Assembly (NCBI RefSeq): GCF_963921235.1
Contig: NC_086097.1
Span: 78,742,001-78,806,000 of the forward strand
Reading direction: 5' to 3'
DNA: 64,000 nucleotides
From: Mobula hypostoma
Taxonomy: Eukaryota
Position 1 is the first letter of the stretch, and each line of letters starts with the position of its first letter. Position numbers and translations under genes: made by a program. Positions 25,679-55,234 of the stretch are shown piece by piece. The notes beneath the pieces were generated by a model, which did not search any database, was not told where the DNA came from, and saw nothing but the letters and a program-made list of their open reading frames with translations.

Positions 25679-26900
25679 TGTCATGGTCCAGTCCGTGAAG
25701 ACCGTATTCCGCTTCACGGTCCGGTCCATCGACCCTTGCTCCAGGTTTTCCTATCTACCCTGTTTCTGTTCTTGTTGAGCTAATTGAGGCAGCTGATGCT
25801 CCTTGGGGCTGGCTGCATAAATACCTCCAGAGACCCAGGCATGGCTGCTGGATTGTTCTTGTCCTTACTGCTTGGATCCCTTGCTCTGCCTTCTGTTTCC
25901 TCGCCTGAAGCCCTGCCTTGTCTTGCCGGTAACTCTCGCCTCGCCTGAAGTTCTCATCTCGCCTCGCATTGCCTGAAGCTTTGCCTTGACTTGCTGGTAA
26001 CTCTCGCCTCGTCTCACCTGCAGTCTTGTCCCGGAGCCACCCTGTACCTAGCTCCCTTCCTGTCCCTTGCCTCCGTCGGGTAAGCCAGGCCGTCTCGCCA
26101 TTACAGGCAGTTGGTTCTGTCCCTTCCGATCCCATGCCTCCGTCAGGTGGTCATCCGCGCCCTGCCAGGTGAACCGTGCCCTGCCCCGGAGGAGCCTGTC
26201 TAGCCTCAAGCCTGAAGACTCCAACGTCACCTCGCCTCTAGTCTCCTGCCTCCAGCCTCCAGCCACGCCTCACCTCAAGTCTCCTGCCTCCAGCCTCCAG
26301 CCTTGCATCAAGACTCCAGCCTCCAGCCTCACCTCGCCTCGCCTCATCTCCTGCCTCCAGCCTCCTGCCTCGCCTCGCCTGAAGACTCCAGCCTCCTGCC
26401 TAGCCTCAAGCCTGAAGACTCCAGCCTCCTGCCTAGCCTCAAGCCTGAAGAGTCCAGCCTCTAGCCTCTAGCCTCTTGCCAAGCCAAGACAAGCATCTAG
26501 CCTCTAGCCTCTAGACTCAAACCTGAAGACTCCAGCCTCCTGCCTCCTGCCAAGCCTCACCTCTAACCTCAAGTCTGAAGACTCCAGCCTCCTGCTTCCT
26601 GCCAAGTTTTGCCTCTAGCCTCAGGCCTGAAGACTCCAGCCTCATCCTGCCTGCCTGCCAAGCCTCGTCCTTGCCAGGTTCTGGGGTCCGAGCTAGAGGC
26701 AAGACCCAGATACTGGGTCCTTGTACAGTCTCTGGCTCGGAATCTAAGCCCGGGCTCCTATCTCTCTTGTCCAGCCCTGTTCTAGGTTCCTGGTTTTCCT
26801 GTCCATGTCCTTGCCATCGCCCTGTATCCTAGTCCTGTCCCTAGTACTTCAGTGTCTGTGTCTTGTACTTGGGTCCATTCCCAGACACCGCCCTATAACA
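25679..26900 (+). mobile_element. LTR 1 of miniature non-autonomous Sushi/Tf1-type LTR element
   Basis: TGTCATGG...CCTATAACA termini; preceded by GTAAT; TATA-like CATAAATA at 25816; minisatellite interior; no CR1 insertion. Confidence 0.88.
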
Positions 26901-27061
26901 GAATGATCCAGCCAACCATGGACCCAGCGACACAGACACTGTCGTTTTCCTCTTGCCACCCGGGGTTCCTTTCTGTTACATACCCTCCCACCCGCCTGGG
27001 TCATCCATAGTCTGGATACCCTGTTTGGTTGCCAGGAAGTTCCCGTAGAGGAGGGGGTTAC
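26901..27061 (+). mobile_element. 161-bp internal region (PBS, gag-start remnant, polypurine tract)
   Basis: GAATGATCCAG right after the LTR; ATG GAC CCA GCG (MDPA); AGAGGAGGGGG just before the next TG. Confidence 0.85.
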
Positions 27062-28312
27062 TGTCATGGTCCGGTCCGTGAAGTCCGTATTCCGGTTCAC
27101 GGTCCGGTCCATTGACCCTTGCTCCAGGTTTTCCTATCTACCCTATTTCTGTTCTTGTTGAGCTAATTGAGGCAGCTGATGCTCGTTGGGACTGGCTGCA
27201 TAAATACCTTCACAGACCAGGGCGTGGCTGCTGGATTGTTCTTGTCCTTACTCCTTGTACCCCTTGCTCTGCCTTCTGTTTCCTGGTCTGAAGCCCTGCC
27301 TTGTGTTGCCAGTAGCTCTCGCCTCGCCTGAACTTCTCGTCTCGCCTTGCATTGCCTGAAGCCTTGCCTTGACTTGCTGGTAACTCTCGCTTCATCTTGC
27401 CTGCTGTCTTGTCCTGGAGCCACCCTGAACCTAGCTCGCTTCCTGTCCCTTGCCTCTGTCGGGTAAGCCAGGCCATCTCGCCATTACATGTGGTTGGTTC
27501 TGTCCCTTCCTGTCCCATGCCTCCGTCGGGTGGTGATCCGCGCCCTGCCCAGGTGATCCACGCTCTGCCCCGGAGGAGCCTGCCTAGACTCAAACCTAAA
27601 GACTCCAGCTTCACCTCGCTTCAAGTCTCCTGCCTCCAGCCTCCAGCCTCACCTCGCTTCAAGTCTCCTGCCTCCAGCCTTGCCTCAAGCCTCCAGCCTT
27701 CAGCCTCACCTTGCCTCAAGCCTCCAGCCTTCAGCCTCACCTCGCTTCAAGTCTCCTGCCTCCAGCCTCGCCTCGCCTGAAGACTCCAGCCTCCTGCCTC
27801 CTGCCAAGCCTCGCCTCTAGCCTCAAGCCAGAAGACTCAAGCCTCCTGCCTCCTGCCAAGCCTCGCCTCTAGCCTCAAGCCTGAAGACTCCAGCCTCACC
27901 CTGCCTGCCTTTCAAGCCTCGTGTTTGCCTGGTTCTGGGGTCCGAGCCAGAGGCAAGACCCAGGTACTGGGTCCTTGTGCAGTCTCTGGCTCGGAGTCCA
28001 TCCTGTCTCCTGCCAAGCCTCGCCTCTTAGCCTCAAGCCTGAAGACTCCAGATTCGTCCTGCCTGCCTGCCAAGCCTCGTCCTTGCCTGGTTCTGGGGTC
28101 CAAGCCAGAGGCAAGACCCAGCTACTGGGTCCTTGTCCGGTCTCTGGCTCAGAGTTCAAGCCCAGGCTCCTAGCTCCCTTGTCCAGTCCTGTTCCAGGTT
28201 CCTGGTTTTCCTGTCCATGTCCTTGCCATCGCCCTGTATCCTAGTCCTGTCCCTAGTACTTCAGTGTCTGTGTCTGGCACTTGGGTCCTTTCCCAGTCAC
28301 CGCCCTATGACA
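27062..28312 (+). mobile_element. LTR 2 of the miniature element
   Basis: TGTCATGG...CCTATGACA, followed by GTAAT matching 25674-25678; no CR1 insertion. Confidence 0.88.
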
Positions 28313-28825
28313 GTAATAGCATTTACGCTAACCGCTACGGTACAATGCTACCCTCTTTTCCTTTATTCTTTAGCTGCCAGTTTCTTTGCGAACTTTAATT
28401 TCTTCCTTTGGACCTGTATTGCCCTTCATAAAAAGTTTTTTTTAATAATGCAGCAATGTCATTTTTAGATAGTTTTTTTTGCAAGGAGATTGCAAGCTAC
28501 AGTGCGTAAAGTATATAATGGGATAATGTAAACCTATAATCTGAAGGAACAGAACATCTACCTGGGAGTCCACATCTCACACAACCTTTCATGGTCCCAG
28601 AACATATCCTTTGCAGTCAGGAAAGCCCACCGATACCTCTACTCTCTGAAGAGAACTGGACTTTGCATATTAATACTCTCGACCTCCTACAAATGCCAAG
28701 TTGAAAGCATCCTAACACTGTATGGCATGGAAACTGCACTGCTAATGGACAGGGCGGCCCAACATCAGGTAGTTAACACCACCCAATGCATCACCAACAC
28801 CAGCCTAATGGTCATCAAGGACAAA

Positions 28826-29395
28826 CACTCAGTGGCCACTTTATTAGATACGCCTGTACATCTGCCCGTTAATGCAAATATCTAATCAGCTTATCACATG
28901 GCAACAACCTAATGCATAAAAACATACAGATATGGTCAAGAGCTTCATTTGTTGTTCAGATCAAATGTCAGAATGGGGGGAAAATATGATTCCACTGACT
29001 TTGACAATGCAATGATTGTTGGAGACAGACGGGGTGGTTTCAGTATCTCAGAAATTGCCGAACTGCTGGGATTTCCACACACAACAGTCTCTGGAGTTTG
29101 CAGCGAATGCTGCAAAAAACACAGATACATCCAGTGAGCGGCAGTTCTGTTGGTAAAAATGCCTTGTTAACGAGAGAAATCAGAGGAGAATGGACAGACC
29201 GGTTGAAGCTGACACAAAGTTGACAGTAACTCAAGTAACCGCATATTACAATTGTAGTATGCAGAAGAGCATTTCTGAACACACAACACATCAGATCTTG
29301 AAGTGGATGGGCCACAGCAGCAGAAGATGGCAAACATACACTCAATGGCCTCTTGATTGGGTACAGAAAGTATTTAATAAAGTGGCCACTGAGTA
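28826..29395 (+). mobile_element. Internally deleted Tc1-like transposon
   Basis: TIRs CACTCAGTGGCCACTTTATTA / TAATAAAGTGGCCACTGAGTA; HTH remnant MIVGDRRGGFSISEIAELLGFPHTTVS. Confidence 0.85.
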
Positions 29396-30789
29396 TATGT
29401 AAGCCAATTTTACATATGTATGGCCACATTCAAACAGTAACTTCTATGTTTATTGGACTGTTTTTTATTTATATCTATTGAGTTCATTATTTATGCTGCA
29501 TTGGTTCCAGAATAACAATCATTTTGTTCTCCTTTACACTCTTATACTAAAGAATGACAATAAACAACTTTGAATTTTGAAATGGGCAATCGACATTTCA
29601 GGTCAAGACCCTTTTTCAGGAATAGGTCTTGATGAAGCATCTCAATTGTCCATTTCACTCCATAGATGCCGCCTGGCCTGCTGAAATCTGGGAATTCAAG
29701 AGAATTTCATGTAAATATTTAAACAATTATCATTACCATCACTTACCCTAATCTCTCATGGATGAAATATCGGTATACCAAGTTAATTTGCTGTGAACGC
29801 AAAGGAGAAAGGTGAAATACTCCAGCTGTACCCTGATACTATTTTACTATAAGTAGGTAATAATTTTAATCGACATGAGACATTTCAAAAAATCGCAATT
29901 GTGGGTGGTATATATTAACAAATTTGCTCATTGTGATAAAATTTCAAACTATCATATATGTAATAATGCATTAATATTTCTGCTTTTGTGTGAGTATGGT
30001 ACAGATTGAGTTGTTGAAATGCTTATGTTTATATTAACTATATGATCATTATCCTCAGAACTATGTGTGTAAATGTTGTGCACATATTTTCTGCCACGGT
30101 TCCTACTTTATATCATCGACTACACTTCAAGAGCACTCCATTGCCTAGGGTCAAGGAGGACACATTGTAAATTGAGTTCTATCTTTTCATCTAGTGTGCT
30201 GCTGTAATCATAATAATATTAAGTGCTCTGCTATCATGGGGGTTAAACCACATAATCCTTGGAAGCATGCACAGCAATTGCAGTGCTTGATTAAGCATGG
30301 TCATTTGTCTGCAACCTGCTCGAGAAAATGGTTTCACCATTCAGCTAGCACCATCTGCAGTGCTCTTTCACTGAACCACCTCGAACTGTTTTAAGCTAGT
30401 CTGTATTTCAAGGGCATGAGCACCACAACTTCACATTTTAGAATACTGCACTCGAGATCTTGAAGAGTAATTTGAGTAGACAAAAGCTATTCTATATTGT
30501 CGGGGGCGGGGCAGAAAGCCCTTTAGTTGCACTCTCAGAAGGTAATGGGAGAAGATAGCTTTCATTATCAGTAGTTAAGGACCCAGATTGAGTTCCAGAG
30601 TAAGTCTAATGACCTGAGAAGGATGGTCATGGGCATAGTAAATTTTGCAGGGAACCTAAAGGTCAGTTGTAAACCCTTCTGCAAATATGCAGAAAGAAAA
30701 AGGTTGGTGGTCAAATATAGGTCCATTGTCAATGATGGGGGAATTTCACAATGGAGAATAGTAAAGTAGCAGAGCAATTGAACAAATAT

Positions 30790-32178
30790 TAGAAACATAG
30801 AAAACCTACAGCACAATACAGCCCCTTCGGCCCACAAAGTTGTGCTGAACATGTCCCTGCCTTACAAATTACTAGGGTTACCCATAGCCCTCTATTTTTC
30901 TAAGCTCCATGTACCTATCCAAAAGTCTCTTAAAAGACCCTATTGTATCCACCTCCACCACCGTTGCCGGCAGCCCATTCCATGCACTCACCACTCTCTG
31001 AGTGAAAAACTTACCCCTGTCATCTCCTCTGTACCTACTCCCCAGCACCTTAAACCTGTGCCCTCTTGTGGCAGCCATTTCAGCCCTGGGAAAAAGCCTC
31101 TGACTATCCACATGATCAAAGCCTCTCATCATCTTATATTCCTCTATCAGATCATCTCTCATCCTCCGTTGCTCCAAGGAGAAAAGGCCAAATTAACTCA
31201 ACCTGTTTTCATAAGGCATGCTCCCCAATCCTGGCAACAAATTTGAAGGCTAGAGGAGAAAATGGCACCGCGACGCAGTTCGCAGCAGCCACTCCAGTGG
31301 TGATGTCTGTAATTTGTCAAGTAGGGTTCCGTGCACAATCCTGATTTGATGGAGACAGACGTGAGAGCATGGAGGAACATCTGGTGAAACTTCTGAAATG
31401 CCTGCTTTGCTGCTGTTGCTACTGTGTGGTCCAGAATCTCTGGAGGAGAAGGCCCCGAGTCCTTGGCTTTGCTTGTTGCTCAGCGGTCAGGTCGGGGTCG
31501 AAGCACTCGGCAGAGGATGTTGCTCGGAGAGGCTGTGTCGGAGGGGCTGGTCGGAGGCTCGAAGTTTTCGGACGGACTCAGAGTCGGCTGCAGTCGGGTG
31601 CTTCCAATGGTGCCGCATGGGCAGGTTGGCGGCGCTTGGAGGTTCATGGCAGGGAGAGTTTCTCCCTTCTGCCGCCTGCATGAGATGATGAGTCTATCGG
31701 GACTCTGAGACTTTTTTTTACTGTGCCCGTGGTCTGCTCTTTATCAAATTATGGTATTGCTTTGCATGGTTGTAACTATATGTTATAATTATGTGATTTT
31801 GTCAGTTTTAGTCTTGGTTTGTGCTGTGTTTTCTTATGATATCGTTCTGGAGGAACATAGTATCAGTTTTTAATGCATGCATTTCTAAATGACAATGTGA
31901 GGACTGAGTGTCCTCATAATCTAATGTAACCTAATCCTTGTAAATCTCCTCTGCACCCTTTCTATGGTTTCCACATCCTTCCCATAGTGAGGCGACCAGA
32001 ACTAAGCACAGTTCTCCAAGTGGGCTCTGACCAGGGTCCTATATAGCTGCAACATTACCTCTCGGCTCCTAAATTCAATTCCACGATTGATGAAGGCCAA
32101 TACACCGGATGCCTTTTTAACCACAGAGTCAACCTACGCAGCTGCATTGAGTGTCCTATGGACTCAGACCCCAAGATG
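30790..32178 (-). mobile_element. CR1 3' fragment containing a ~0.7-kb nested insertion (31240-31934), itself inside an older plus-strand CR1
   Basis: RMRDDLIEEYKMMRG...FFTQRVVSAWNGLP; (AGAAACAT)n tail; CR1 resumes GGCAACA|TCCTTGTAAATC across the insert. Confidence 0.8.
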
Positions 32179-33300
32179 CCTTGTCTTCACAGAAGAGAAG
32201 ACAAGTGAGGAAGCGAGCAAAGGATCAACTGAGGAAGCGAGCAAAGGAACGACAGAAGGAATTTAGACAAGTGTAAAGTGATGCACTTTCCAACATTTTA
32301 CACACAGGAATGGCAGGGCATGTTGTTGACTGAGGCAGCTTGGGGTACAAGTACATAGTTCCCCAGAAGGGCCAACACAGTCGACAAGGTGGTGACAAAA
32401 GCCTCGTGCCTCCAGCCTCGCCTCACCTCAGCTCTCCTGCCTCCAGCCTCCAGCCTCACCTAGCCTTAAGTCTCCTGCCTCCAGTCTCGCCTCGCCTCAA
32501 GTCTCCAGCCTCGCCTCACCTCAACTCTCCTGCCTCCAACCTCGCCTCGCCTGAAGACTCCAGCCTCCTGCCTAGCCTCAAGCCTGAAGACTCCAGCCTC
32601 CTGCCTAGCCTCTTGCCAAGCTGAGCCAAGCCTCTAGCCTCTAGCCTCAAGCCTCAAGCCTGAAGACTCCAGCCTCCTGCCTCCTGTCAAGCCTCACCTC
32701 TGGCCTCAAGCCTGCAGTTCTCATCTCGCCTTCCTGCCTCCTGTCAAGCCTCACCTCTGGCCTCAAGCCTGAAGTTCTCATCTCGCCTTGCATTGCCTGA
32801 AGCCTTGCCTTGACTGTATCCTAGTCCTGTCCCTAGTACTTCAGTGTCTGGGTCTTGCACTTGGGTCCATTCCCAGCCACCGCCCTATGACAGAACGATC
32901 CAGACAACCATGGACCCAGTGACACAGACACTGTTGCTTTCCTCTTGCGACCCGGGGTTCCTTTCTGTTACATACCTTCCCACCCACCCGGGTCGTCCAT
33001 ATTCTTGGGTACCCTGTTTGGTCGTCAGGAGGCTCCTGTAGAGGGGGGCGTACTGTCATGGTCCGGTCCGTCAACTCCGCATTCCGGTTCACGGTCCGGT
33101 CCATCGACCCTTGCTCCAGGTTTTCCTATCTACCCTGTTTCTGTTCTTGTCGAGCTAATTGAGGCAGCTGATGCTCTTTGGGGCTGGCTGCATAAATACC
33201 TGCATAAATAGCGTGGCTGCTGGATTGTTCTTGTCCTTACTCCTCGTAACCTTTGCTCTGTCTTTGGTTTCTGCCTTGCCTTGTCTTGCCGGTAACTCTC

Positions 33301-35294
33301 ATAGAAACATAGAAACATAGAAAATAGGTGCAGGAGTAGGCCATTCAACCCTTCGAGGCTGCACCGCCATTTATTATGATCATGGGTGATTATCCAACTC
33401 AGATCCCTGCCCCAGCCTTCCCTCCATACTCCCTGATCCCCGAAGCCACAAGGGCCATATCTAACTCCCTCTTAAATATAGCCAATGAACTGGCCTCAAC
33501 TGTTTCCTGTGGCAGAGAATTCCACAGATTCACCACTCTCTGTGTGAAGAAGTTTTTCCTCATCTCGGTCCGAAAAGGCTTCCCCTTTATCCTCAAACGG
33601 TGACCCCTCGTTCTGGACTTCCCAACATCGGGAACAATCTTCCTGCATCTAGCCTGTTCAATCCCTTTAGGATTTTATACGTTTCAATCAGATCCCCCCT
33701 CAATCTTCTGGATTCCAACGAGTACAAGCCCAGTTCATCCAGTCTTTCTTCATATAAAAGTCCTGCCATCCCAGGAATCAATCTGGTGAACCTTCTTTGT
33801 ACTCCCTCTATGGCAAGGATGTCTTTCCTCAGATTAGGGGACCAAAACTGCACACAATACTCCAGGTGTGGTCTCACCAAGGCCTTGTACAACTGCAGTA
33901 GTACCTCCCTGCTCCTGTACTCGAATCCTCTCGCTATAAATGCCAGCATACCATTCACCTTTTTCACCGCCTGCTGTACCTGCATGCCCACTTTCAATGA
34001 CTGGTGTATAATGACACCCAGGTCTCGTTGCACCTCCCCTTTTCCTAATCGGCCACCATTCAGATAATAATCTCTTTTCCTATTTTTGCCACCAAAGTGG
34101 ATAACTTCACATTTATCCACATTAAATTGCATCTGCCATGAATTTGCCCACTCACCCAACCTATCCAAGTCATTCTGCATCCTCTTAGCATCCTTCTCAC
34201 AGCTAACACTTCCACCCAGCTTCGTGTCATCCGCAAACTTGGAGATGCTGCATTTAATTCCCTCATCCAAGTCATTAATATACATTGTAAACATCTGGGG
34301 TCCCAGCACTGAGCCTTGCGCTACCCCACTAGTCACCGCCTGCCATTCTGAAAAGGTCCCGTTTATTCCCACTCTTTGCTTCCTGTCTGCTAACCAATTC
34401 TCTATCCACATCAATACCTTACCCCCAATACCGTGTGCTTTAAGTTTGCACACTAATCTCCTGCGTGGGACCTTGTCAAAAGCCTTTTGAAAATCCAAAT
34501 ACACCACATCCACTAGTTCTCCCCTATCCACTCTACTAGTTACATCCTCAAAAATTTCTATGGGATTCGTCGGACATGATTTTCCTTTCATAAATCCATG
34601 CTGACTTTGTCCAATGATTTCACCGCTTTCCAAATGTGCTGTTATCACATCTTTGATAACTGACTCCAGCAGTTTCCCCACCACCGACGTTAGGCTAACC
34701 GGTCTATAATTCCCCGGTTTCTTTCTCCCTCCTTTTTTAAACAGTGGGGTTACATTAGCCACCCTCCAATCCTCAGGAACTAGTCCAGAATCTAACGAGT
34801 TTTGAAAAATTATCACTAATGCATCCACTATTTCTTGGGTACTTCCTTAAGCTCTCTGGGATACAGACCATCTGGCCCTGGGGATTTATCTGCCTTCAAT
34901 CCCTTCAATTTACCTAACACCGCTTCCCTACTAACATGTATTTCGCTCAGTTCCTCCATCTCACTGGACCCTCTGTCCCCTACTATTTCTGGAAGATTAT
35001 TTATGTCCTCCTTAGTGAAGACAGAACCAAAGTAATTATTCAATTGGTCTGCCATGTCCTTGCTCCCCATAATCAATTCACCTGTTTCTGTCTGTAGGGG
35101 ACCTACATTTGTCTTTACCAGTCTTTTCCTTTTTACATATCTATAAAAGCTTTTACAGTCAGTTTTTATGTTCCCTGCCACTTTTCTCTCATCATCTTTT
35201 TTCCCCTTCCTACTTAAGCCCTTTGTCCTCCTCTGCTGAACTCTGAATTTCTCCCAGTGCTCAGGTGAGACACTTTTTCTGGCTAATATGTATG
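33301..35294 (-). mobile_element. 5'-truncated CR1 (RT only), unit 1
   Basis: ORFs 34828-35331, 33593-34828, 33399-33596; YLDFQKAFDKVP, QGSVLGP, KFADD; two frameshifts. Confidence 0.95.
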
Positions 35295-42999: not shown

Positions 43000-44617
43000 T
43001 TCTCGCTTCGCCTGAAGTTCTCATCTCGCCTTGCATTGCCTGAAGCCTTGCTTTGACTTGGTGGTAATTGTCATCTCGTCTTGCCTGCAGTCTTGTCCTG
43101 GAGCCACCCTGTACCTAGCACCCTTCCTGTCCATTGCCTCCGTCGGGTAAGCCAGCCGTCTCGCCATTACCTGTGGTTGATTCTGTCCCTTCCTGTCCCA
43201 TGCCTCCGTCAGGTGGTGATCCGCGCCCTGCCCAGGAGTACGGCGTCCTGCCCAGGTGAACCGCGCCCTGCCCCGGAGGAGCCTGCCTAGCCTCAAGCCT
43301 CGTCTCAAGTCTCCTGCCTGCAGCCTCGCCTCGCCTCAAGTCTCCTGCCTCCAGCCTCGCCTCACCTCAAGTCTCCAGCCTCCAGCCTCCAGCCTCGCCT
43401 CACCTCAACTCTCCTGCCTCCAGCTTCCAGCCTCACCTGGCCTCAAGTCTCCTGCCTCCAGCCTCGCCTCAAGCCTCCAGCCTCACTTAAGCCTCCAGCC
43501 TCCAAACTCACATCGCATCAAGCCTCCAGCATCCAGCCTCACCTCGCCTCAAGTCTCCTGCCTCCAGCCTCGCCTCGCCTGAAGACTTCAGCCTCCTGCC
43601 GAGCCTCAAGCCTGAAGACTCCAGCCTCCTGCCTAGCCTCTTGCCAAGCCAAGCCAAGTCTCTAGCCTCTTGCCAAGCTGAGACAAGCCTCTAGCCTCTA
43701 GCCTCTAGCCTCAAGCCTCAAGCCTGAAGACTCCAGCCTCGCCCTGCCTGCCTTTCAAGCCTCGTGTTTGCCTGGTTCTGGGGTCCGAGCTAGAGGCAAG
43801 ACCCAGGTACTGGGTCCTTGTTCAGTCTCTGGCTCGGAGTCCATCCTGCCTCCTGCCAAGCCTCGCCTCAAACCTCAAGCCTGAAGACTCCAGCCTCATC
43901 CTGCCTGCCTGCCAAGTCTCGCCTCTAGCCTCAGGACTGAAGACTCCAGCCTCGTCCTGCCTGCCTGCCAAGGTTCATCCTTGCCTGGTCCTGGGGTCCG
44001 AGCCAGAGGTAAGACCCAGCTCCTGGGTCCTTGTCCAGTCTCTGGCTCAGAGTTCAAGCCCAGGCTCCTAGCTCCCTTGTCCAGTCCTGTTCCAGGTTCC
44101 TGGTTTTCCTGTCCATGTCCCTGCCATTGCCCTGTATCCTCGTCCTGTCTCTCGTACTTCAGTGTCTGTGTCTTGCACTTGGGTCCATTCTCAGCCACCG
44201 CCCTATGACAGAACGATCCAGACAACCATAGACCCAGTGACACAGACACTGTTGCTTTCCTCTTGCCACCTGGGGTTCCTTTCTGTTACATACCTTTCCA
44301 CACACCCGGGTCGTCCATATTCTGGGTACCCTGTTTGGTCGCCAGGAGGCTCCTGTAGAGGGGGGCGTACTGTCATGGTCCGGTCCGTCAAGTCCGTATT
44401 GCGGTTCACGGTCCGGTCCAGCAACCCTTGCTCCAGGTTTTCCTATCTACCCTGTTTCTGTTCTTGTCGAGCTAATTGAGGCAGCTGATGCTCTTTGGGG
44501 CTGGCTGCATAAATACCTGCATAAATAGCGTGGCTGCTGGATTGTTCTTGTCCTTACTCCTTGTAACCTTTGCTCTGCCTTTCGTTTCTGCCTTACCTTG
44601 TCTTGCCGGTAACTCTC

Positions 44618-46606
44618 ATAGAAACATAGAAACATAGAAAATAGGTGCAGGAGTAGGCCATTCAGCCCTTCGAGCCTGCACAGCCATTTATTATGATCAT
44701 GGCTGATCATCCAACTCAGAACCCTGCCCCAGCCTTCCCTCCATACCCACTGATCCCCGTAGCCACAAGGGCCATATCTAACTCCCTCTTAAATATAGCC
44801 AATGAACTGGCCTCAACTGTTCCCTGTGGCAGAGAATTCCGCAGATTCACCACTCTCTGTGTGAAGAAGTTTATCCTCATCTCGGTCCTAAAAGGCTTCC
44901 CCTTTATCCTCAAACTGTGACCCCTCGTTCTGGACTTCCCCAAAATCGCGAACAATCTTCCTGCATCTAGCCTGTCCAATCCCTTTAGGATTTTATACGT
45001 TTCAATCAGATCCCCCCCTCAATCTTCTAAATTCCAACGAGTACAAGCCAAGTTCATCCAGTCTTCCTTCATATGAAAGTCCTGTCATCCCAGGAATCAA
45101 TCTGGTGAACGTTCTTTGTACTCCCTCTGATGTCCTTCCTCAGATTAGGGGACCAAAACTGCACACCATACTCCAGGTGTGGTCTCACTAAGGCCTTGTA
45201 CAACTGCAGTGGTACCTCCCTGCTCCTGTACTCGAATCCTCTCGCTTTAAATGCCAGCATACCATTCACCTTTTTCACTGCCTGCTGTACCTGCATGCCC
45301 ACTTTCAATGACTGGTACATAATGACACCCAGGTCTCGTTGCACCTCCCCTTTTCCTAATCGGCCACCATTCAGATAATAATCTCTTTTCCTATTTTTGC
45401 CACCAAAGTGGATAACTTCACATTTATCCACATTAAATTGCATCTGCCATGAATTTGTCCACTCACCCAACCTATCCAAGTCACTCTGCATCCTCTTAGC
45501 ATCCTCCTCACAGCTAACACTGCCACCCAGCTTCGTGTCATCCGCAAACTTGGAGATGCTGCATTTAATTCCCTCATCCAAGTCATTAATATATATTGTA
45601 AACAACTGGGGTCCCAGCACTGAGCCTTGCGGTACCCCACTAGTCACCGCCTGCCATTTTGAAAATGTCCCGTTTATTCCCACGCTTTGCTTCCTGTCTG
45701 CTAACCAATTCTCTATCCACATCAATACCCTACCCCCAATAACGTGTGCTTTAAGTTTGTACACTAATGTCCTGTGTGGGAACTTGTCAACAGCCTTTTG
45801 AAAATCCAAATACACCACATCCACTAGTTCTCCCCTATCCATTCTACTAGTTACATCCTCAAAAAATTCTATGAGATTCGTCAGACATGATTTTCCTTTC
45901 ACAAATCCATGCTGACTTTGTCCGATCATTTCACCGCTTTCCAAATGTGCTGTTATCACATCTTTGATAACTGACTCCAGCAGTTTCCCCACCACCGACG
46001 TTAGGCTAACCGGTCTATAATTCCCCGGTTTCTTTCTCCCTCCTTTTTTAAAAAGTGGGGTTACATTAGCCACCCTCCAATCCTCAGGAACTAGTCCAGA
46101 ATCTAATGAGTTTTGAAAAATTATCACTAATGCATCCACTATTTCTTGGGCTACTTCCTTAAGCACTCTGGGATGCAGACCATCTGACCCTGGGGATTTA
46201 TCTGCCTTCAATCCCTTCAATTCACCTAACACCGCTTCCCTACTAACATGTATTTCGCTCAGTTCCTCCATCTCACTGGACCCTCTGTCCCCTACTATTT
46301 CTGGAAGATTATTTATGTCCTCCTTTGTGAAGACAGAACCAAAGTAATTATTCAATTGGTCTGCCATGTCCATGCTCCCCATAATCAATTCACCTGTTTC
46401 TGTCTGTAGGGGACCTACATTTGTCTTTACCAGTCTTTTCCTTTTTACATATCTATAAAAGCTTTTACAGTCAGTTTTTATGTTCCCTGCCAGTTTTCTC
46501 TCTACATCTTTTTTCCCCTTCCTAATTAAGCCCTTTGTCCTCCTCTGCTGAACTCTGAATTTCTCCAAGTGCTCAGGTGAGACACTTTTCCTGGCTAATT
46601 TGTATG
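44618..46606 (-). mobile_element. 5'-truncated CR1, unit 4; 524-aa frame from the LTR-derived ATG (45069-46643)
   Basis: Open from MQGEMRT through the RT core; frameshifting deletion near 45128. Confidence 0.95.
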
Positions 46607-48054
46607 TCCTCGCTTCGCCTGAAGTTCTCATCTCGCCTTGCATTGCCTGAAGCCTTGCCTTGACTTGGTGGTAATTCTCATCTCGTCTTGCCTGCAGTCT
46701 TGTCCTGGAGCCACCCTGTACCTAACACCCTTGCTGTCCATTGCCTCCGTCGGGTAAGCCAGCCGTCTCGCCATTACCTGTGGTTGGTTCTGTCCCTTCC
46801 TGTCCCATGCCTCCGTCAGGTGGTGATCCGCGCCCTGCCCAGGAGTACGGCGTCCTGCCCAGGTGAACCGCGCCCTGCCCCGGAGGAGCCTGCCTAGCCT
46901 CAAGCCTCGTCTCAAGTCTCCTGCCTCCAGCCTCGCCTCGCCTCAAGTCTCCAGCTTCCAGCCTCCAGCCTCGCCTCACCTCAACTCTCCTGCCTCCAGC
47001 CTCCAGCCTCACCTCGCCTCAAGTCTCCTGCCTCCAGCCTCGTCTCGCCTGAAGACTTCAGCCTCCTGCCTAGCCTCTTTCCAAGCCAAGCCAAGTCTCT
47101 AGCCTCTTGCCAAGCTGAGACAAGCCTCTAGCCTCTAGCCTCTAGCCTCAAGCCTCAAGCCTGAAGACTCCAGCCTCGCCCTGCCTGCCTTTCAAGCCTC
47201 GTGTTTGCCTGGTTCTGGGGTCGGAGCCAGAGGCAAGACCCAGGTACTGGGTCCTTGTTCAGTCTCTGGCTCGGAGTCCATCCTGCCTCCTGCCAAGCCT
47301 CGCCTCTAGCCTCAAGCTTGAAGACTCCAGCCTCGTCCTGCCTGCCTGCCAAGTCTCGCCTCTAGCCTCAGGACTGAAGACTCCAGCCTCGTCCTGCCTG
47401 CCTGCCAAGGTTCATCCTTGCCTGGTCCTGGGGTCCGAGCCAGAGGCAAGACCCAGCTCCTGGGTCCTTGTCCAGTCTCTGGCTCAGAGTTCAAGCCCAG
47501 GCTCCTAGCTCCCTTGTCCAGTCCTGTACCAGGTTCCTGGTTTTCCTGTCCATGCCCCTGCCATTGCCCTGTATCCTAGTCCTGTCTCTAGTACTTTAGT
47601 GTCTGTGTCTTGCACTTGGGTCCATTCCCAGCCACCGCCCTATGACAGAATAATCCAGACAACCATGGACCCAGTGACACAGACACTGTTGCTTTCCTCT
47701 TGCCACCCGGGGTTCCTTTCTGTTACATACCTTCCCACCCACCCGGGTCGTCCATATTCTGGGTACCCTGTTTTGTCGCCAGGAGGCTCCTGTAGAGGGG
47801 GGCGTACTGTCATGGTCCGGTCCGTTAACTCCGCATTCCGGTTCACGGTCCGGTCCATCGACCCTTGCTCCAGGTTTTCCTATCTACCCTGTTTCTGTTC
47901 TTGTAGAGCTAATTGAGGCAGCTGATGCTCTTTGGGGCTGGCTGCATAAATATCTGCATAAATGGCGTGGCTGCTGGATTGTTCTTGTCCTTACTCCTCG
48001 TAACCTTTGATCTGCCTTTTGTTTCTGCCTTGCCTTGTCTTGCCGGTAACTCTC

Positions 48055-50045
48055 ATAGAAACATAGAAACATAGAAAATAGGTGCAGGAGTAGGCCATTC
48101 GGCCCTTCGAGCCTGCACCGCCATTTATTATGATCATGGCTGATCATCCAACTCAGAACCCTGCCCCAGCCTTCCCTCCATATCCCCTGATCCCCGTAGC
48201 CACAAGGGCCATATCTAACTCCATCTTAAATATAGCCAATGAACTGGCCTCAACTGTTTCCTGTGGCAGAGAATTCCACAGATTCACCACTCTCTGTGTG
48301 AAGAAGTTTTTCCTCATCTCGGTCCTAAAAGGCTTCCCCTTTATCCTCAAACTGTGACCCCTCGTTCTGGACTTCCCCAACATCAGGAACAATCTTCCTG
48401 CATCTAGCCTGTCCAATCCCTTTAGGATTTTATACGTTTCAATCAGATCCCCCCTCAATCTTCTAAATTCCAACGAGTACAAGCCCAGTTCATCCAGTAT
48501 TTCTTCATATGAAAGTCCTGCCATCCCAGGAATCAATCTGGTAAACCTTCTTTGTACTCCCTCTATGGCAAGGATGTCTTTCCTCAGATTCGGGGACCAA
48601 AACTGCACACAATACTCCAGGTGTGGTCTCACCAAGGCCTTGTACAACTGCAGTAGTACCTTCCCTGCTCCTGTACTCGAATCCGCTCGCTAGAAATGCC
48701 AGCATACCATTCACCTTTTTCACCGCCTGCTGTACCTGCATGCCCACTTTCAATGACTGGTGTCTAATGACACCTGGGTCTCGTTGCACCTCCCCTTTTC
48801 CTAATCGGCCACCATTCAGATAATAATCTCTTTTCCTATTTTTGCCACTAAAGTGGATAACTTCACATTTATCCACATTAAATTGCTATGAATTTGCCCA
48901 CTCACCCAACTTATCCAAGTCACTCTGCATCCTCTTAGCATCCTCCTCACAGCTAACACTGCCACCCAGCTTCGTGTCATCCGCAAACTTGGAGATGCTG
49001 CATTTAATTCCCTCATCCAAGTCATTAATATATATTGTAAACAACTGGGGTCCCAGCACTGAGCCTTGCGGTACCCCACTAGTCACCGCCTGCCATTTTG
49101 AAAAGGTCCCATTTATTCCCACTCTTTGCTTCCTGTCTGCTAACCAATTCTCTATCCACATCAATACCTTACCCCCAATAACGTGTGCTTTAAGTTTGCA
49201 CACGAATCTCCTGTGTGGGACCTTGTCAACAGCCTTTTGAAAATCCAAATACACCACATCCACTAGTTCTCCCCTATCCACTCTACTAGTTACATCCTCA
49301 AAAAATTCTATGAGAGTCGTCAGACATGATTTTCCTTTCACAAATCCATGCTGACTTTGTCCGATCATTTCACCGCTTTCCAAATGTGCTGTTATCACAT
49401 CTTTGATAACTGACTCCAGCAGTTTCTCCACCACCGACGTTAGGCTAACCGGTCTATAATTCCCCGGTTTCTTTCTCCCTCCTTTTTTAAAAAGTGGGGT
49501 TACATTAGCCACCCTCCAATCCTCAGGAACTAGTCCAGAATCTAATGAGTTTTGAAAAATTATCACTAATGCATCCACTATTTCTTGGGCTACTTCCTTA
49601 AGCACTCTGGGATGCAGACCATCTGGCCCTGGGGATTTATCTGCCTTCAATCCCTTCAATTCACCTAACACCGCTTCCCTACTAACATGTATTTCGCTCA
49701 GTTCCTCCATCTCACTGGACCCTCTGTCCCCTACTATTTCTGGAAGATTATTTATGTCCTCCTTAGTGAAGACAGAACCAAAGTAATTATTCAATTGGTC
49801 TGCCATGTCCTTGCTCCCCATAATCAATTCACCTGTTTCTGTCTGTAGGGGACCTACATTTGTCTTTACCAGTCTTTTCCTTTTTACATATCTATAAAAG
49901 CTTTTACAGTCAGTTTTTATGTTCCCTGCCAGTTTTCTCTCCACATCTTTTTTCCCCTTCCTAATTAAGCCCTTTGTCCTCCTCTGCTGAACTCTGAATT
50001 TCTCCCAGTGCTCAGGTGAGACACTTTTCCTGGCTAATTTGTATG
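48055..50045 (-). mobile_element. 5'-truncated CR1 (RT only), unit 5
   Basis: ORFs 48886-50082, 48505-48876, 48153-48647. Confidence 0.95.
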
Positions 50046-51697
50046 TTCTCGCTTCGCCTGAAGTTCTCATCTCGCCTTGCATTGCCTGAAGCCTTGCCTT
50101 GACTTGGTGGTAATTGTCATCTCATCTCGCCTGCAGTCTTGTCCTGGAGCCACCCTGTACCTAGCACCCTTCCTGTCCATTGCCTCCGTCGGGTAAGCCA
50201 GCCGTCTCGCCGTTACCTGTGGTTGGTTCTGTCCCTTCCTGTCCCATGCCTCCGTCAGGTGGTGCTCCGCGCCCTGCCCAGGAGTACGGCGTCCTGCCCA
50301 GATGAATCGCGCCCTGCCCCGGAGGAGCCTGCCTAGCCTCAAGTCTCAAGTCTCAAGTCTCCTGCCTCCAGCCTCGCCTCGCCTCATCTCCTGCCTCCAG
50401 CCTAGGCTCGCCTCAAGTCTCCAGCCTCCAGCCTCCAGCCTCGCCTCACCTCAACTCTCCTGCCTCCAGCCTCCAGCCTCACCTGGCCTCAAGTCTCCTG
50501 CCTCCAGCCTCGCCTCAAGTCTCCAGCCTCCAGCCTCACATCGCATCAAGCCTCCAGCCTCCAGCCTCACCTCACCTCAAGTCTCCTGCCTCCAGCCTCG
50601 CCTCGCCTGAAGACTTCAGCCTCCTGCCTAGCCTCAAGCCTGAAGACTCCAGCCTCCTGCCTAGCCTCTTGCCAAGCCAAGCCAAGTCTCTAGCCTCTTG
50701 CCAAGCTGAGACAAGCCTCTAGCCTCTAGCCTCTAGCCTCAAGCCTCAAGCCTGAAAACTCAAGCCTCCTGCCTCCTGCCAAGCCTCGCCTCTAGCCTCA
50801 AGCCTGAAGACTCCAGCCTCGCCCTGCCTGCCTTTCAAGCCTCGTGTTTGCCTGGTTCTGGGGTCGGAGCCAGAGGCAACACCCAGGTACTGGGTCCTTG
50901 TTCAGTCTCTGGCTCGGAGTCCATCCTGCCTCCTGCCAAGCCTCGCCTCTAGCCTCAAGCCTGAAGACTCCAGCCTCGTCCTGCCTGCCTGCCAAGTCTC
51001 GCCTCTAGCCTCAGGACTGAAGACTCCAGCCTCGTCCTGCCTGCCTGCCAAGGTTCATCCTTGCCTGGTCCTGGGGTCCGAGCCAGAGGCAAGACCCAGC
51101 TCATGGGTCCTCGTCCAGTCTCTGGCTCAGAGTTCAAGCCCAGGCTCCTAGCTCCCTTGTCCAGTCCTGTACCAGGTTCCTGGTTTTCCTGTCCATGTCC
51201 CTGCCATTGCCCTGTATCCTAGTCCTGTCTCTAGTACTTCAGTGTCTGTGTCTTGCACTTGGGTCTATTCCCAGCCACCGCCCTATGACAGAACGATCCA
51301 GACAACCATGGACCCAGTGACACAGACACTGTTGCTTTCCTCTTGCCACCCGGGGTTCCTTTCTGTTACATACCTTCCCACCCACCCAGGTCGTCCATAT
51401 TCTGGGTACCCTGTTTGGTCGCCAGGAGGCTCCTGTAGAGGGGGGCGTACTGTCATGGTCCGGTCCGTCAAGTCCGTATTGCGGTTCACGGTCCGGTCCA
51501 GCAACCCTTGCTCCAGGATTTCCTATCTACCCTGTTTCTGTTCTTGTAGAGCTAATTGAGGCAGCTGATGCTCTTTGGGGCTGGCTGCATAAATACCTGC
51601 ATAAATAGCGTGGCTGCTGGATTGTTCTTGTCCTTACTCCTCGTAACCTTTGATCTGCCTTTTGTTTCTGCCTTCCCTTGTCTTGCCGGTAACTTTC

Positions 51698-53692
51698 ATA
51701 GAAACATAGAAACATAGAAAATAGGTGCAGGAGTAGGCCATTCAGCCCTTCGAGCCTGCACCGCCATTTATTATGATCATGGCTGATCATCCAACTCAGA
51801 ACCCTGCCCCAGCCTTCCCTCCATACCCACTGATCCCCGTAGCCACAAGGGCCATATCTAACTCCCTCTTAAATATAGCCAATGAACTGGCCTCAACTGT
51901 TTCCTGTGGCAGAGAATTCCACAGATTCACCACTCTCTGTGTGAAGAAGTTTTTCCTCATCTCGGTCCTAAAAGGCTTCCCCTTTATCCTCAAACTGTGA
52001 CCCCTCGTTCTGGACTTCCCCAAAATCGCGAACAATCTTCCTGCATCTAGCCTGTCCAATCCCTTTAGGATTTTATACGTTTCAATCAGATCCCCCCTCA
52101 ATCTTCTAAATTCCAACGAGTACAAGCCCAGTTCATCCAGTCTTTCTTCATATGAAAGTCCTGCAATCCCAGGAATCAATCTGGTGAACCTTCTTTGTAC
52201 TCCCTCTATGGGAAGGATGTCCTTCCTCAGATTAGGGGACCAAAACTGCACACAATACTCCAGGTGTGGTCTCACCAAGGCCTTGTACAACTGCAGTGGT
52301 ACCTCCCTGCTCCTGTACTCGAATCCTCTCGCTATAAATGCCAGCATACCATTCACCTTTTTCACTGCCTGCTGTACCTGCATGCCCACTTTCAATGACT
52401 GGTGTATAATGACACCCAGGTCTCGTTGCACCTCCCTTTTCCTAATCAGCCACCATTCAGATAATAATCTCTTTTCCTATTTTTGCCACCAAAGTGGATT
52501 ACTTCACATTTATCCACATTAAATTGCATCTGCCATGAATTTGCCCACTCACCCAACCTATCCAAGTCACTCTGCATCCTCTTAGCATCCTCCTCACAGC
52601 TAACACTGCCACCCAGCTTCATGTCATCCGCAAACTTGGAGATGCTGCATTTAATTCCGTCATCCAAGTCATTAATATATATTGTAAACAACTGGGGTCC
52701 CAGCACTGTGCCTTGCGGTACCCCACTAGTCACCGCCTGCCATTTTGAAAAGGTCCCGTTTATTCCCACTCTTTGCTTCCTGTCTGCTAACCAATTCTGT
52801 ATCCACATCAATACCTTACCCCCAATAACGTGTGCTTTAAGTTTGCACACTAAGCTCCTGTGTGGGACCTTGTCAACAGCCTTTTGAAAATCCAAATACA
52901 CCACATCCACTAGTTCTCCCCTATCCACTCTACTAGTTACATCCTCAAGAAATTCTATGAGATTCGTCAGACATGATTTTCCTTTCACAAATCCATGCTG
53001 ACTTTGTCAGATGATTTCACCGCTTTCCAAATGTGCTGTTATCACATCTTTGATAACTGACTCCAGCAGTTTCCCCACCACCGACGTTAGGCTAACCGGT
53101 CTATAATTCCCCGGTTTCTTTCTCCCTGCTTTTTTAAAAAGTGGGGTTACATTAGCCACCCTCCAATCCTCAGGAACTAGTCCAGAATCTAATGAGTTTT
53201 GAAAAATTATCACTAATGCATCCACTATTTCTTGGGCTACTTCCTTAAGCACTCTGGGATGCAGACCATCTGGCCCTGGGGATTTATCTGCCTTCAATCC
53301 CTTCAATTCACCTAACACCGCTTCCCTACTAACATGTATTTCGCTCAGTTCCTCCATCTCACTGGACCCTCTGTCCCCTACTATTTCTGGAAGATTATTT
53401 ATGTCCTCCTTAGTGAAGACAGAACCAAAGTAATTATTCAATTGGTCTGCCATGTCCTTGCTCCCCATAATCAATTCACCTGTTTCTGTCTGTAGGGGAC
53501 CTACATTTGTCTTTACCAGTCTTTTCCTTTTTACATATCTATAAAAGCTTTTACAGTCAGTTTTTATGTTCCCTGCCAGTTTTCTCTCCACATCTTTTTT
53601 CCCCTTCCTAATTAAGCCCTTTGTCCTCCTCTGCTGAACTCTGAATTTCTCCCAGTGCTCAGGTGAGACACTTTTCCTGGCTAATTTGTATG
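51698..53692 (-). mobile_element. 5'-truncated CR1 (RT only), unit 6
   Basis: ORFs 53007-53729, 52446-52988, 51796-52431. Confidence 0.95.
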
Positions 53693-55234
53693 TTCTCGCT
53701 TCGCCTGAAGTTCTCATCTCGCCTTGCATTGCCTGAAGCCTTGCCTTGACTTGGTGGTAATTCTCATCTCGTCCCGCCTGCAGTCTTGTCCTGGAGCCAC
53801 CCTGTACCTAGCACCCTTCCTGTCCATTGCCTCCGTCGGGTAAGCCAGCCGTCTCGCCATTACCTGTGGTTGGTTCTGTCCCTTCCTGTCCCATGCCTCT
53901 GTCAGGTGGTGATCCGCGCCCTGCCCAGGAGTACGGCGTCCTGCCCAGGTGAACCGCGCCCTGCCCCGGAGGAGCCTGCCTAGCCTCAAGCCTCGTCTCA
54001 AGTCTCCTGCCTGCAGCCTCGCCTCGCCTCAAGTCTCCTGCCTCCAGCCTCGCCTCACCTCAAGTCTCCAGCCTCCAGCCTCGCCTCACCTCACCTCAAC
54101 TCTCCTGCCTCCAGCTTCCAGCCTCACCTGGCCTCAAGTCTCCTGCCTCCAGCCTCGCCTCAAGCCTCCAGCCTCCAAACTCACATCGCATCAAGCCTCC
54201 AGCCTCCAGCCTCACCTCGCCTCAAGTCTCCTGCCTCCAGCCTCGCCTCGCCTGAAGACTTCAGCCTCCTGCCTAGCCTCAAGCCTGAAGACTCCAGCCT
54301 CCTGCCTAGCCTCTTGCCAAGCCAAGCCAAGTCTCTAGCCTCTTGCCAAGCTGAGACAAGCCTCTAGCCTCTAGCCTCTAGCCTCAAGCCTCAAGCCTGA
54401 AAACTCAACCCTCCTGCTTCCTGCCAAGTCTCGCCTCTCGCCTCAGGCCTGAAGACTCCAGCTTCGTCCTGCCTGCCTGCCAAGCCTCATCCTTGCCTGG
54501 TTCTGGGGTCCAAGCCAGAGGCAAGACCCAGCTACTGGGTCCTTGTCCGGTCTCTGGCTCAGAGTTCAAGCCCAGGCTCCTAGCTCCCTTGTCCAGTCCT
54601 GTTCCAGGTTCCTGGTTTTCCTGTCCATGTCCTTGCCATCGCCCTGTATCCTAGTCCTGTCCCTAGTACTTCAGTGTCTGTGTCTTGTACTTGGGTCCTT
54701 TCCCAGTCACCGCCCTATGACAGTTATAGCATTACGCTAACCGCTACGGTACAATGCTACCCTCTTTTCCTTTGTTCTCTAGCTGACAGTTTCTTTGCGA
54801 ACTTTAATTTCTTCCTTTGGACCTGTATTGCCCTTCATAAGAAGTTTTTTTTAATAATGCAGCAATGTCATTTTTACATAGTTTTTTTTGCAAGGAGATT
54901 GCAAGGTACAGCGCGTAAAGTATATAATAGGATAATGTAAACCTATAATCTGAAGGAACAGAACATCTACCTGGGAGTCCACATCTCACACAACCTTTCA
55001 TGGTCCCAGAACATATCCTTTGCAGTCAGGAAAGCCCACCGATATCTCTACTCTCTGAAGAGAGCTGGACTTTGCATATTAATACTCTCGACCTCCTACA
55101 AATGCCAAGTTGAAAGCATCCTAACACTGTATGGCATGGAAACTGCACTGCTAATGGACAGGACGGCCCAACATCAGGTAGTTAAGACCACCCAATGCAT
55201 AACCAACACCAGCCTAATGGTCATCAAGGACAAA

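What the first reader, a model, noticed from the sequence alone, without database searches (positions are those of the whole stretch)
25679..54722. 29-kb tandem array of a miniature LTR retroelement whose repeat unit carries a captured LINE reverse transcriptase, 3 kb upstream of GPR176
Seen: LTR-int-LTR-int-...-LTR with seven 160-161-bp internal regions, bounded by GTAAT (25674-25678) and GTTAT (54723-54727), inside one SINE. The last six LTRs have the same ~2-kb antisense CR1 at the same site (AACTCTC|ATAGAAAC...TATG|), so one LINE insertion was amplified with its LTR. Established: tandem TRIM arrays are known in plants, and LTR-LTR unequal exchange gives this architecture. Inference: a composite LTR/LINE macrosatellite forming in a vertebrate; I do not recall this family being described.
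Basis: partly seen in the sequence, partly recalled or inferred. Interest (0 to 1): 0.8.

Follow-up and report, generated by a model that had tools for sequence, protein, structure and literature searches.

The report
Ray LTR tandem with nested LINE
In a devil ray, an old gene-less jumping element with a broken LINE fragment stuck in its end repeat stands as six head-to-tail copies near GPR176; the copies were likely made by ordinary DNA recombination and are found nowhere else in the genome, so this is a local case of a known kind of tandem repeat rather than a new mobile element.

Summary
The parts are real; the architecture is not as drawn. The 29 kb holds one complete 2,634-bp element (LTR-int-LTR, perfect GTAAT duplication at 25674-78 and 28313-17), then a missed 4.1-kb copy of the right flank (about 98.5% identical to 54723-59157), then a 21.8-kb array of six 3.4-4.2-kb units. 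Each unit's LTR carries the same 5'-truncated, antisense 2-kb CR1. The element is an old dispersed family (226 PBS hits) with 1.2-kb LTRs, too long for the <1.5-kb TRIM definition. It likely self-primes like Tf1/sushi: an 11-nt LTR segment after the TATA box pairs with the PBS, with compensatory changes in gag-pol relatives. The CR1 copies are all broken and evolve neutrally (pN/pS 0.92). Three array-specific junction or motif searches found no dispersed composite. Contig depths support the flank duplication, also in a second species; unit number is unchecked. Best reading: one CR1 insertion into a three-LTR tandem, stepwise unequal exchange, then a flank duplication. Tandem non-autonomous LTR arrays (plants, bivalves, zebrafish, kangaroo KERV) and CR1-bearing satellites (chicken) are published. 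The scan already noted this family elsewhere in this genome (e1-9190551). New member of a known kind.

The parts
22328..22546 (-). GPR176 first coding exon (73 codons, followed by a GT donor); neighbour, not part of the array
   Evidence: 100% identity to a protein named GPR176; translation and donor
25521..25678 (+). Left half of the short dispersed host repeat, ending in the left TSD GTAAT (25674-25678)
25679..26900 (+). LTR L1 (1,222 bp, TGT...ACA), TATA-like ATAAATA at LTR base 139, predicted self-primer CTGGATTGTTC at 25848-25858, central VNTR; no CR1
26901..27061 (+). Internal region I0 (161 bp): PBS, first codons of a gag-like start, polypurine tract; 11-13% from the array interiors
27062..28312 (+). 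LTR L2 (1,251 bp), no CR1; 27890-28005 as close to the array LTRs as they are to each other; 28050-28312 nearly identical to the terminal LTR
   Evidence: 2-4/116 and 4/263 differences; motifs absent from 34 dispersed records
28313..32399 (+). Right TSD GTAAT (28313-28317) and flank copy A: duplicate of 54723-59157 with 42-bp and 304-bp deletions; joins an LTR VNTR through the shared AAGC
   Evidence: contig depths and breakpoints
32400..32892 (+). Rearranged LTR fragment (VNTR, a displaced LTR motif, last 79 bp of an LTR)
32893..54722 (+). Array of six units (internal region + LTR with CR1), 21,830 bp, periods 4170, 3540, 3607, 3437, 3643 bp
33301..35294 (-). CR1 fragment in unit 1 (5'-truncated, RT region plus 3' tail; two 1-bp deletions)
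37471..39442 (-). CR1 fragment in unit 2 (frameshift and stop)
41011..42999 (-). CR1 fragment in unit 3 (7-bp deletion; 543-aa open stretch with RVT_1)
44618..46606 (-). CR1 fragment in unit 4 (8-bp deletion, 1-bp insertion; RVT_1)
48055..50045 (-). CR1 fragment in unit 5 (1-bp insertion)
51698..53692 (-). CR1 fragment in unit 6 (1-bp deletion, two stops)
54723..59157 (+). GTTAT (mutated TSD copy) and flank copy B, undeleted; 59157 is the right breakpoint of the duplication

Best explanation
This is a six-unit tandem array of a gene-less LTR retrotransposon, each unit holding the same broken antisense CR1 fragment, likely built in place by unequal DNA exchange and interrupted by a 4-kb duplicate of its own flank. 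Steps. (1) Shown: a dispersed non-autonomous family (LTR-160 bp-LTR, 5-bp TSDs) sits in a short host repeat 3.1 kb upstream of GPR176. (2) Inferred: the family came from Tf1/sushi-type Ty3/gypsy elements by loss of almost all of gag-pol, and it primed reverse transcription on itself, the first 11 nt of its RNA pairing with the PBS. (3) Inferred: the locus first held three LTRs and two different interiors, a form common in this family; whether it arose at integration or by later recombination with a second copy is open. (4) Shown: one 5'-truncated CR1 lies antisense in the array LTR; inferred: it inserted into the third LTR. (5) Inferred: exchange between the second and third LTR, downstream of the CR1, duplicated the block 'LTR 3' half + interior + LTR 5' half with CR1', and repeated unequal exchange gave six units. 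(6) Shown: the terminal LTR end plus 4.4 kb of flank is present twice; inferred: one repair or template-switch event used LTR homology on the left and a 4-bp microhomology on the right, at about the time two ray species split. The array does nothing known; it most likely decays neutrally.
For: Family: 456 candidates, 226 PBS-pattern hits against 0 control; 9 of 34 fetched records with a 5/5 TSD and 8 with 4/5 at automatically set ends; LTR pairs 7% apart at the median. Three or more LTRs at 6 of 33 fetched loci and 7 of 87 loci among the first 100 listed hits (counted by hand). Self-priming: 11/11 pairing in all six LTR-PBS pairs of the window; the pair forms in the MFE and centroid folds of 25848-26930; 2 of 300 shuffled LTRs match as well; 7 of 12 gag-bearing elements have the reciprocal pair (PBS ending CTGG, LTR segment starting CCAG) about 30 nt after a TATA-like box; interior ends align to 6 of 6 tested coding elements beyond all 500 shuffles; Pfam finds gag, RVT_1, rve and SH3_Tf2-1 in such elements. 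Local stepwise growth: CR1 copies 1.3-3.6% apart in a fully supported nested tree; L2's 3' block differs from the units by 2-4/116 while L1 differs from L2 by 11/120; array-specific TATA duplication has 6 hits, all here. Neutral decay: 29 synonymous and 80 non-synonymous changes, pN/pS 0.92, P=0.74. Duplication real: single contigs in the duplicated part have depths 24-27 against 16-17 (X1), 90-97 against 42-46 (X5) and 17.5-22 against 9.5-9.8 (X6), and contigs of X1, X5 and X6 end exactly at 59157.
Against: No read or contig spans the array, so six units rest on the assembly. The 5' halves of L1, L2 and the array LTR share no rare variants, so the three-LTR precursor is inferred, not seen. 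The CR1 tree order (1,(5,(6,(4,(2,3))))) is not a simple neighbour-by-neighbour pattern, and some sites conflict (13, 34, 15 patterns), which needs multi-unit exchange or conversion. The transcription start at LTR base 170 is predicted only; the motif counts come from patterns built on the motif itself. Contig depth is a rough measure, and X1/X2 may be the assembly's own sample. No coding element with this family's LTR was found.
Confidence: 0.74

Rival explanations
1. The CR1-bearing array grew at another locus and was copied or moved here in the same event that duplicated the flank; the donor has been lost or is missing from the assembly.
For: Array interiors are 11-13% from I0 and array LTR 5' halves 9-11% from L1 and L2. 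Units (up to 3.6%) are older than the flank duplicate (1.5%). The left edge of the array is a microhomology junction and a rearranged LTR.
Against: L2 27890-28005, outside the duplicated block, is as close to the units as they are to each other, with a motif absent from 34 dispersed records. No donor by three pattern searches.
Confidence: 0.1
2. The units were added through RNA: LTR-driven transcripts of the composite were reverse transcribed and the cDNA recombined into the resident LTR, as in the integrase-independent tandem insertion of Tf1.
For: Every unit keeps TATA box, self-primer, PBS and PPT. Tf1 forms tandems this way (PMC11042837, passages). Tandems are frequent in this family.
Against: cDNA production should also leave dispersed composites, and none was found. 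Dispersed copies and the coding relatives sampled look older than the array (LTR pairs about 7% apart; best LTR matches 73-89% identical in 8 of 12 coding loci, none found in 4). A few very similar LTR pairs occur only inside tandems (L021, L049).
Confidence: 0.07
3. The LTR-plus-CR1 unit is a mobile composite element with a captured reverse transcriptase.
For: One other locus (L041, G000:C9) has a CR1 3' end joined at the same GGTAACTCTC motif of an LTR of this family. Open stretches of 543 and 550 codons with RVT_1 remain.
Against: The L041 insert is 274 bp, sits at the second copy of the motif, in one LTR only, and lacks the array's LTR diagnostics: an independent insertion. The RT is antisense to the LTR promoter, lacks the LINE's 5' part, is disrupted in 6 of 6 copies and evolves neutrally.
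Confidence: 0.03
4. The flank duplicate and some units are assembly artefacts (two haplotypes joined through repeats).
For: No contig spans the array; repeats of 3.5 kb are hard to assemble.
Against: Copy-B-specific stretches have full single-copy depth in X1 (17.2 and 17.4 against 16.1) while shared stretches are higher; a second species shows twice the depth and the same breakpoint. X1 contigs match unique window sequence with 0 differences over 1,382 bp, so 1.3-3.6% between units is not consensus error; 29 variants are shared among units.
Confidence: 0.05

Closest known systems
Tandemly arrayed TRIMs and non-autonomous LTR elements (Gao et al. 2016, PMC4717578; sugar beet, PMC13570524; biv-TRIM, PMC6934838; zebrafish LTR-11_DR in PMC10886601; passages read)
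   Same: LTR-interior-LTR with PBS and PPT only, 5-bp TSD, shared-LTR tandems; three-LTR form most common; tandems of LTR-11_DR are already reported in a vertebrate.
   Different: LTRs of 1.2 kb or more with a VNTR (element 2.6 kb); predicted self-priming; the unit carries a 2-kb LINE fragment; the array is split by a flank duplication.
Tf1/sushi group of Ty3/gypsy elements (self-priming noted for yeast and vertebrate members in PMC6317226, passages; Tf1 tandem formation in PMC11042837, passages)
   Same: PBS complementary to the predicted 5' end of the RNA; interior ends homologous to gag-pol elements of this genome that carry DUF4939, Retrotrans_gag, RVT_1, rve and SH3_Tf2-1.
   Different: No coding capacity; long VNTR-bearing R/U5; no helper with the same LTR found; RT phylogeny of the coding relatives not run.
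Kangaroo KERV megasatellite (Koga et al. 2023; Hayashi et al. 2022; seen only as cited in PMC11899658)
   Same: Vertebrate tandem of LTR elements sharing internal LTRs, attributed to recombination between LTRs.
   Different: Retroviral and centromeric there; here six units of a gene-less Ty3/gypsy derivative beside a gene.
Chicken HinfI repeat and CR1-C centromeric satellites (Li and Leung 2006; Shang et al. 2010; seen only in Table 1 and references of PMC6947457)
   Same: A CR1 fragment amplified as part of a tandem repeat unit in a vertebrate.
   Different: No LTR element frame is described in the passages seen; here the CR1 is nested in an LTR.

Membership tests
TRIM (Gao et al. 2016) | Element shorter than 1,500 bp | tested here: not met
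   2,634 bp here (25679-28312); TSD-bounded dispersed copies 1.7-4.5 kb; criterion. It would count under the size-free use of the term in PMC13570524.
TRIM (Gao et al. 2016) | At least two complete copies with different TSDs | tested here: met
   9 of 34 records with 5/5 and 8 with 4/5 TSDs, all different
TRIM (Gao et al. 2016) | No retrotransposon protein encoded; PBS and PPT present | tested here: met
   160-161-bp interior with only a gag-like start; no long ORF in 25679-28312; PBS and PPT. No BLASTX was run.
Tandemly arrayed TRIM (LxI(x-1) between one TSD pair) | Uninterrupted alternation of LTR and interior from TSD to TSD | tested here: not met
   4,087 bp of flank copy and a broken LTR interrupt it; 32893-54722 alone alternates regularly
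Tf1/sushi-group derivative | PBS complementary to an LTR segment just downstream of the TATA box | tested here: met
   11/11 pairs, 28-31 nt after ATAAAT; reciprocal changes in 7 of 12 coding elements
Tf1/sushi-group derivative | Interior ends homologous to autonomous Ty3/gypsy elements | tested here: met
   5' end E 3e-5 to L073 and L077, E 2e-7 and 1e-9 to L089 and L090; 3' end beyond 500 shuffles in 6 of 6; Pfam domains
Tf1/sushi-group derivative | Helper RT falls in the Tf1/sushi (chromovirus V) clade; chromodomain | not tested
   No RT tree was built; the chromodomain stretch was not scanned
Tf1/sushi-group derivative | Transcript starts at the primer segment, which is cleaved and used as primer | not testable with these tools
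   Needs 5' end mapping
CR1 LINE insertion | RT domain, 3' short tandem tail, 5' truncation, many longer relatives | tested here: met
   RVT_1 E 1e-30; ATAGAAAC tail; 12,634 hits at the truncation site, 99 of the first 100 continue past it
CR1 LINE insertion | Clade assignment by RT phylogeny | not tested
Mobile composite retroelement | Dispersed copies with the insert in both LTRs and own TSDs | tested here: not met
Macrosatellite | Kilobase units in tandem | tested here: met
   six units of 3.4-4.2 kb
Macrosatellite | Copy number varies between individuals | not testable with these tools
   Only collapsed contigs were available

The most novel reading that the evidence does not exclude
The array is a self-made anti-LINE locus: six intact LTR promoters, each with a doubled TATA box, read straight into 2 kb of antisense CR1 reverse-transcriptase sequence from a subfamily with more than 12,000 copies, so that one trapped LINE, amplified in tandem by its host LTR, would yield antisense or small RNAs against the genome's abundant LINE; each unit also keeps self-primer, PBS and PPT, so it could in principle still be copied as an LTR-framed LINE.
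Probability: 0.07. Interest if true: 0.65.

Novelty: new member of a known kind. Interest (0 to 1): 0.3.

Why it matters
It is a clean, ordered example of how a large-unit tandem repeat starts in a vertebrate: old LTR element (about 7% LTR divergence), LINE insertion (about 3.5-4% from a sister copy), stepwise expansion (3.6% to 1.3%), flank duplication (1.5%, shared with a second species), later deletions. The family itself, a likely self-priming non-autonomous Tf1/sushi derivative with VNTR-bearing LTRs, was not found in my literature searches and is worth a library entry. It does not open a new mechanism. It would matter more if the units are transcribed into antisense CR1 RNA or if copy number affects GPR176.

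Tried and rejected
Mobility: three tight pattern searches of the genome gave only array hits plus L041, which proved independent. Function of the RT: rejected by lesions and pN/pS. A shared 5' truncation as a sign of a short CR1 subfamily: L084 is cut within 5 bases of the array's site, but 99 of 100 listed copies run on; treated as chance or a weak hot spot. Helper with the same LTR: 12 DUF4939 loci and 2 pattern hits share PBS, gag start and PPT type but not the LTR body. Wider duplication: the flank occurs only twice, both here; no further units in the 10 kb before or 20 kb after the window. Rfam found nothing credible in 25300-28500. PDB and Pfam did not name the GPR176 exon. Fold of the LTR/CR1 junction was unremarkable (z -0.32). 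Runs X9 and X10 have contigs that go on past 32402 into unlike sequence, and X9 has unlike sequence before 28323: a weak hint that those species lack the junction and perhaps the insertion, not calibrated. Look-alike search in other genomes of the scan was blank. Dfam and Repbase could not be searched, and supplements of the papers were not opened, so prior cataloguing of the family is not excluded.
Full report
Observation. A self-comparison of the window and junction mapping confirm seven interiors of 160-161 bp and six LTRs with an antisense CR1 fragment of 1,972-1,995 bp at the same site. The left element is complete on its own: LTR L1 25679-26900, interior I0 26901-27061, LTR L2 27062-28312, with GTAAT on both sides (25674-78, 28313-17). 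Then come 4,087 bp of ordinary flank, a copy of 54723-59157 (68 mismatches in 4,086 columns, 8 of them in a short templated patch at a 304-bp deletion; also a 42-bp deletion). A 4-bp overlap (AAGC) joins it to a rearranged LTR piece (32400-32892). The true array is 32893-54722: six units with periods of 4,170, 3,540, 3,607, 3,437 and 3,643 bp. The host repeat is dispersed and reads through with one GTAAT-like site in 5 of 11 other copies; that it is a SINE was not tested. The exon at 22328-22546 on the minus strand is identical to a protein named GPR176 of Mobula hypostoma. The LTRs point away from the gene.

The element family. The interior has 456 candidates in the genome (40 scored); an LTR-end plus PBS pattern has 226 hits against 0 for the control. 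Of 34 fetched records, 9 have a perfect and 8 a one-mismatch 5-bp TSD at automatically set ends; the rest were cut off by the fetch or had mis-set ends. LTRs of one locus differ by a median of 7.4% (5' part, 36 pairs) and 7.0% (3' part, 34 pairs), different loci by about 10%: an old family. Tandems are common: three or more LTRs at 6 of 33 fetched loci (one has four) and 7 of 87 loci among the first 100 listed PBS hits (hand count). At 2.6 kb the element fails the <1,500-bp TRIM criterion of Gao et al. (PMC4717578, passages) but fits the size-free use in PMC13570524 (passages).

How it was copied. The PBS is not of the TGG tRNA type (my knowledge). It is complementary to CTGGATTGTTC in the LTR, 31 nt after ATAAAT (28 nt in the six array LTRs, which have a doubled TATA). 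All six LTR-PBS pairs in the window pair 11 of 11, the helix appears in both the MFE and centroid folds of the predicted transcript, and 2 of 300 shuffled LTRs do as well. The counts across copies (51 of 70 LTR 11-mers exact; 53 of 57 PBS in three variants) come from patterns built on the motif, so they are descriptive only. Stronger is the comparison with coding elements found through DUF4939 (12 fetched): their PBS ends CTGG instead of CCAG, and 7 of 12 have the reciprocal CCAG segment about 30 nt after a TATA-like box. Their interior ends align with the small element's, and they carry Retrotrans_gag, RVT_1, rve and SH3_Tf2-1. Self-priming is described for Tf1/sushi elements of yeast and vertebrates (PMC6317226, passages). 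So the family works like a non-autonomous Tf1/sushi derivative; the start site and the helper's clade are untested, and no helper with the same LTR body was found.

The CR1. It is a 5'-truncated member of a large subfamily: 12,634 exact hits at the truncation site, 99 of the first 100 running on. The six copies form one clade against two dispersed copies (98/96), 1.3-3.6% apart and 3.4-4.2% from the nearest outside copy. All six have frameshifts or stops; 29 synonymous and 80 non-synonymous changes over 533 codons give pN/pS 0.92 (P=0.74). Nothing suggests that the RT is used.

Mobility. The 3'-tail junction has 7 hits, 6 here and 1 on C9 (control 11); the other junction has 5 hits, all here (unit 1 differs by more than one base); the doubled TATA has 6 hits, all here. 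The C9 copy (L041) is a 274-bp CR1 end at the second copy of the LTR motif, in one LTR only, without the array's diagnostics: an independent insertion. The composite has not spread in this assembly.

History. The array interiors are 1-4% from each other but 11-13% from I0, and the array LTR 5' halves are 9-11% from L1 and L2, sharing no rare variant with them. In contrast L2 27890-28005 differs from the units by 2-4 of 116 bases, and L2 28050-28312 from the terminal LTR by 4 of 263 against 17-23 for others. This fits a precursor with three LTRs and two interiors, a CR1 in the third LTR, and unequal exchange downstream of the CR1 that copies L2's 3' half with the second interior and the CR1-bearing 5' half. 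The flank duplication came later (1.5%). Against a neat account: the tree order is not strictly positional and some sites conflict, and the precursor is not seen.

Is it real? Contigs of public runs do not span the array. They do support the duplication. In X1, contigs in the duplicated part have depth 24-27, copy-B-specific and unique contigs 16-17; contigs break at the 42-bp indel, at the 304-bp deletion and at 59157. In a second species label (X5, X6; one sample), depths are 90-97 against 42-46 and 17.5-22 against 9.5-9.8, and contigs end at 59157, while both deletions are absent. That species differs by 18 of about 1,390 letters in unique flank, close to the 1.5% between the copies. X1 and X2 may be the assembly's own sample and contig depth is a rough measure, so this is support, not proof. 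The number of units is unchecked by reads.

Comparison with the known. Shared-LTR tandems are described in plants (PMC4717578, PMC11899658, PMC13570524 with 3-21 LTRs), bivalves (PMC6934838, up to 58 repeats), zebrafish LTR-11_DR (PMC10886601) and kangaroo KERV (cited in PMC11899658), and CR1 inside satellites in chicken (Table 1 of PMC6947457); I read passages of these papers only. Tf1 forms tandems by cDNA recombination (PMC11042837, passages), a rival route. Nine searches found no description of this family, of a self-priming non-autonomous element in a cartilaginous fish, or of an LTR-plus-LINE tandem unit; the library lacks most subscription papers, and Dfam and Repbase were not available. 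After forming my reading I found that the scan had noted the same kind of three-LTR, self-priming element elsewhere in this genome (e1-9190551).

Verdict. A real, local, neutrally decaying composite tandem; a new member of a known kind. Interest 0.3. The boldest reading not excluded, an LTR-driven antisense CR1 locus, has no expression evidence either way and gets probability 0.07.

Noticed in passing
L041 (G000:C9:41725495-41725788): An independent 274-bp CR1 3' end is inserted at the paralogous GGTAACTCTC motif of another LTR of this family, same orientation; a possible target preference of this CR1.
   Followed up: partly
L084 7220-9218 (G000:C21, about 64.07 Mb): A dispersed CR1, 96% identical to the array's, is 5'-truncated within 5 bases of the same site and lies 3.9 kb from a four-LTR tandem of the family; no LTR sequence at its ends.
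   Followed up: partly
L021-L022 (G000:C21:78307982-78316126): Three-LTR tandem with a perfect TAGAC duplication, LTRs of about 3.3 kb from VNTR growth, and two interiors 0.0% apart: a very recent duplication or an assembly effect.
   Followed up: partly
window 36304-37063: The LTR of unit 1 has a second VNTR and 3' block (2,016 bp without CR1), an internal duplication.
   Followed up: partly
window 32202-32248: The 304-bp deletion in flank copy A carries a short templated repeat (24-bp period), a template-switch scar; absent in the second species' contigs.
   Followed up: partly
window 10386-12624 (-): 495-aa RT frame plus a downstream frame with a GIY-YIG-like motif (Penelope-like, label from recall); 95-98% matches in L042, L046 and L084 point to a young family.
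   Followed up: no
window 61318-63288 (-): Broken Ty3/gypsy-like gag and protease frames with a zinc knuckle and a 27-bp coding repeat (labels from recall).
   Followed up: no
window 28832-29393 and 55241-55802: A DNA-transposon-like piece with inverted ends (CAGTGGCCACTTTATTA) inside the duplicated flank (Tc1-like, label from recall).
   Followed up: no
window 18022-18558 (-): 178-aa frame resembling a hAT-type transposase fragment (label from recall).
   Followed up: no
L071-L082, L089, L090: An abundant set of old gag-pol Ty3/gypsy elements (2,121 DUF4939 candidates) with the same self-priming layout.
   Followed up: partly
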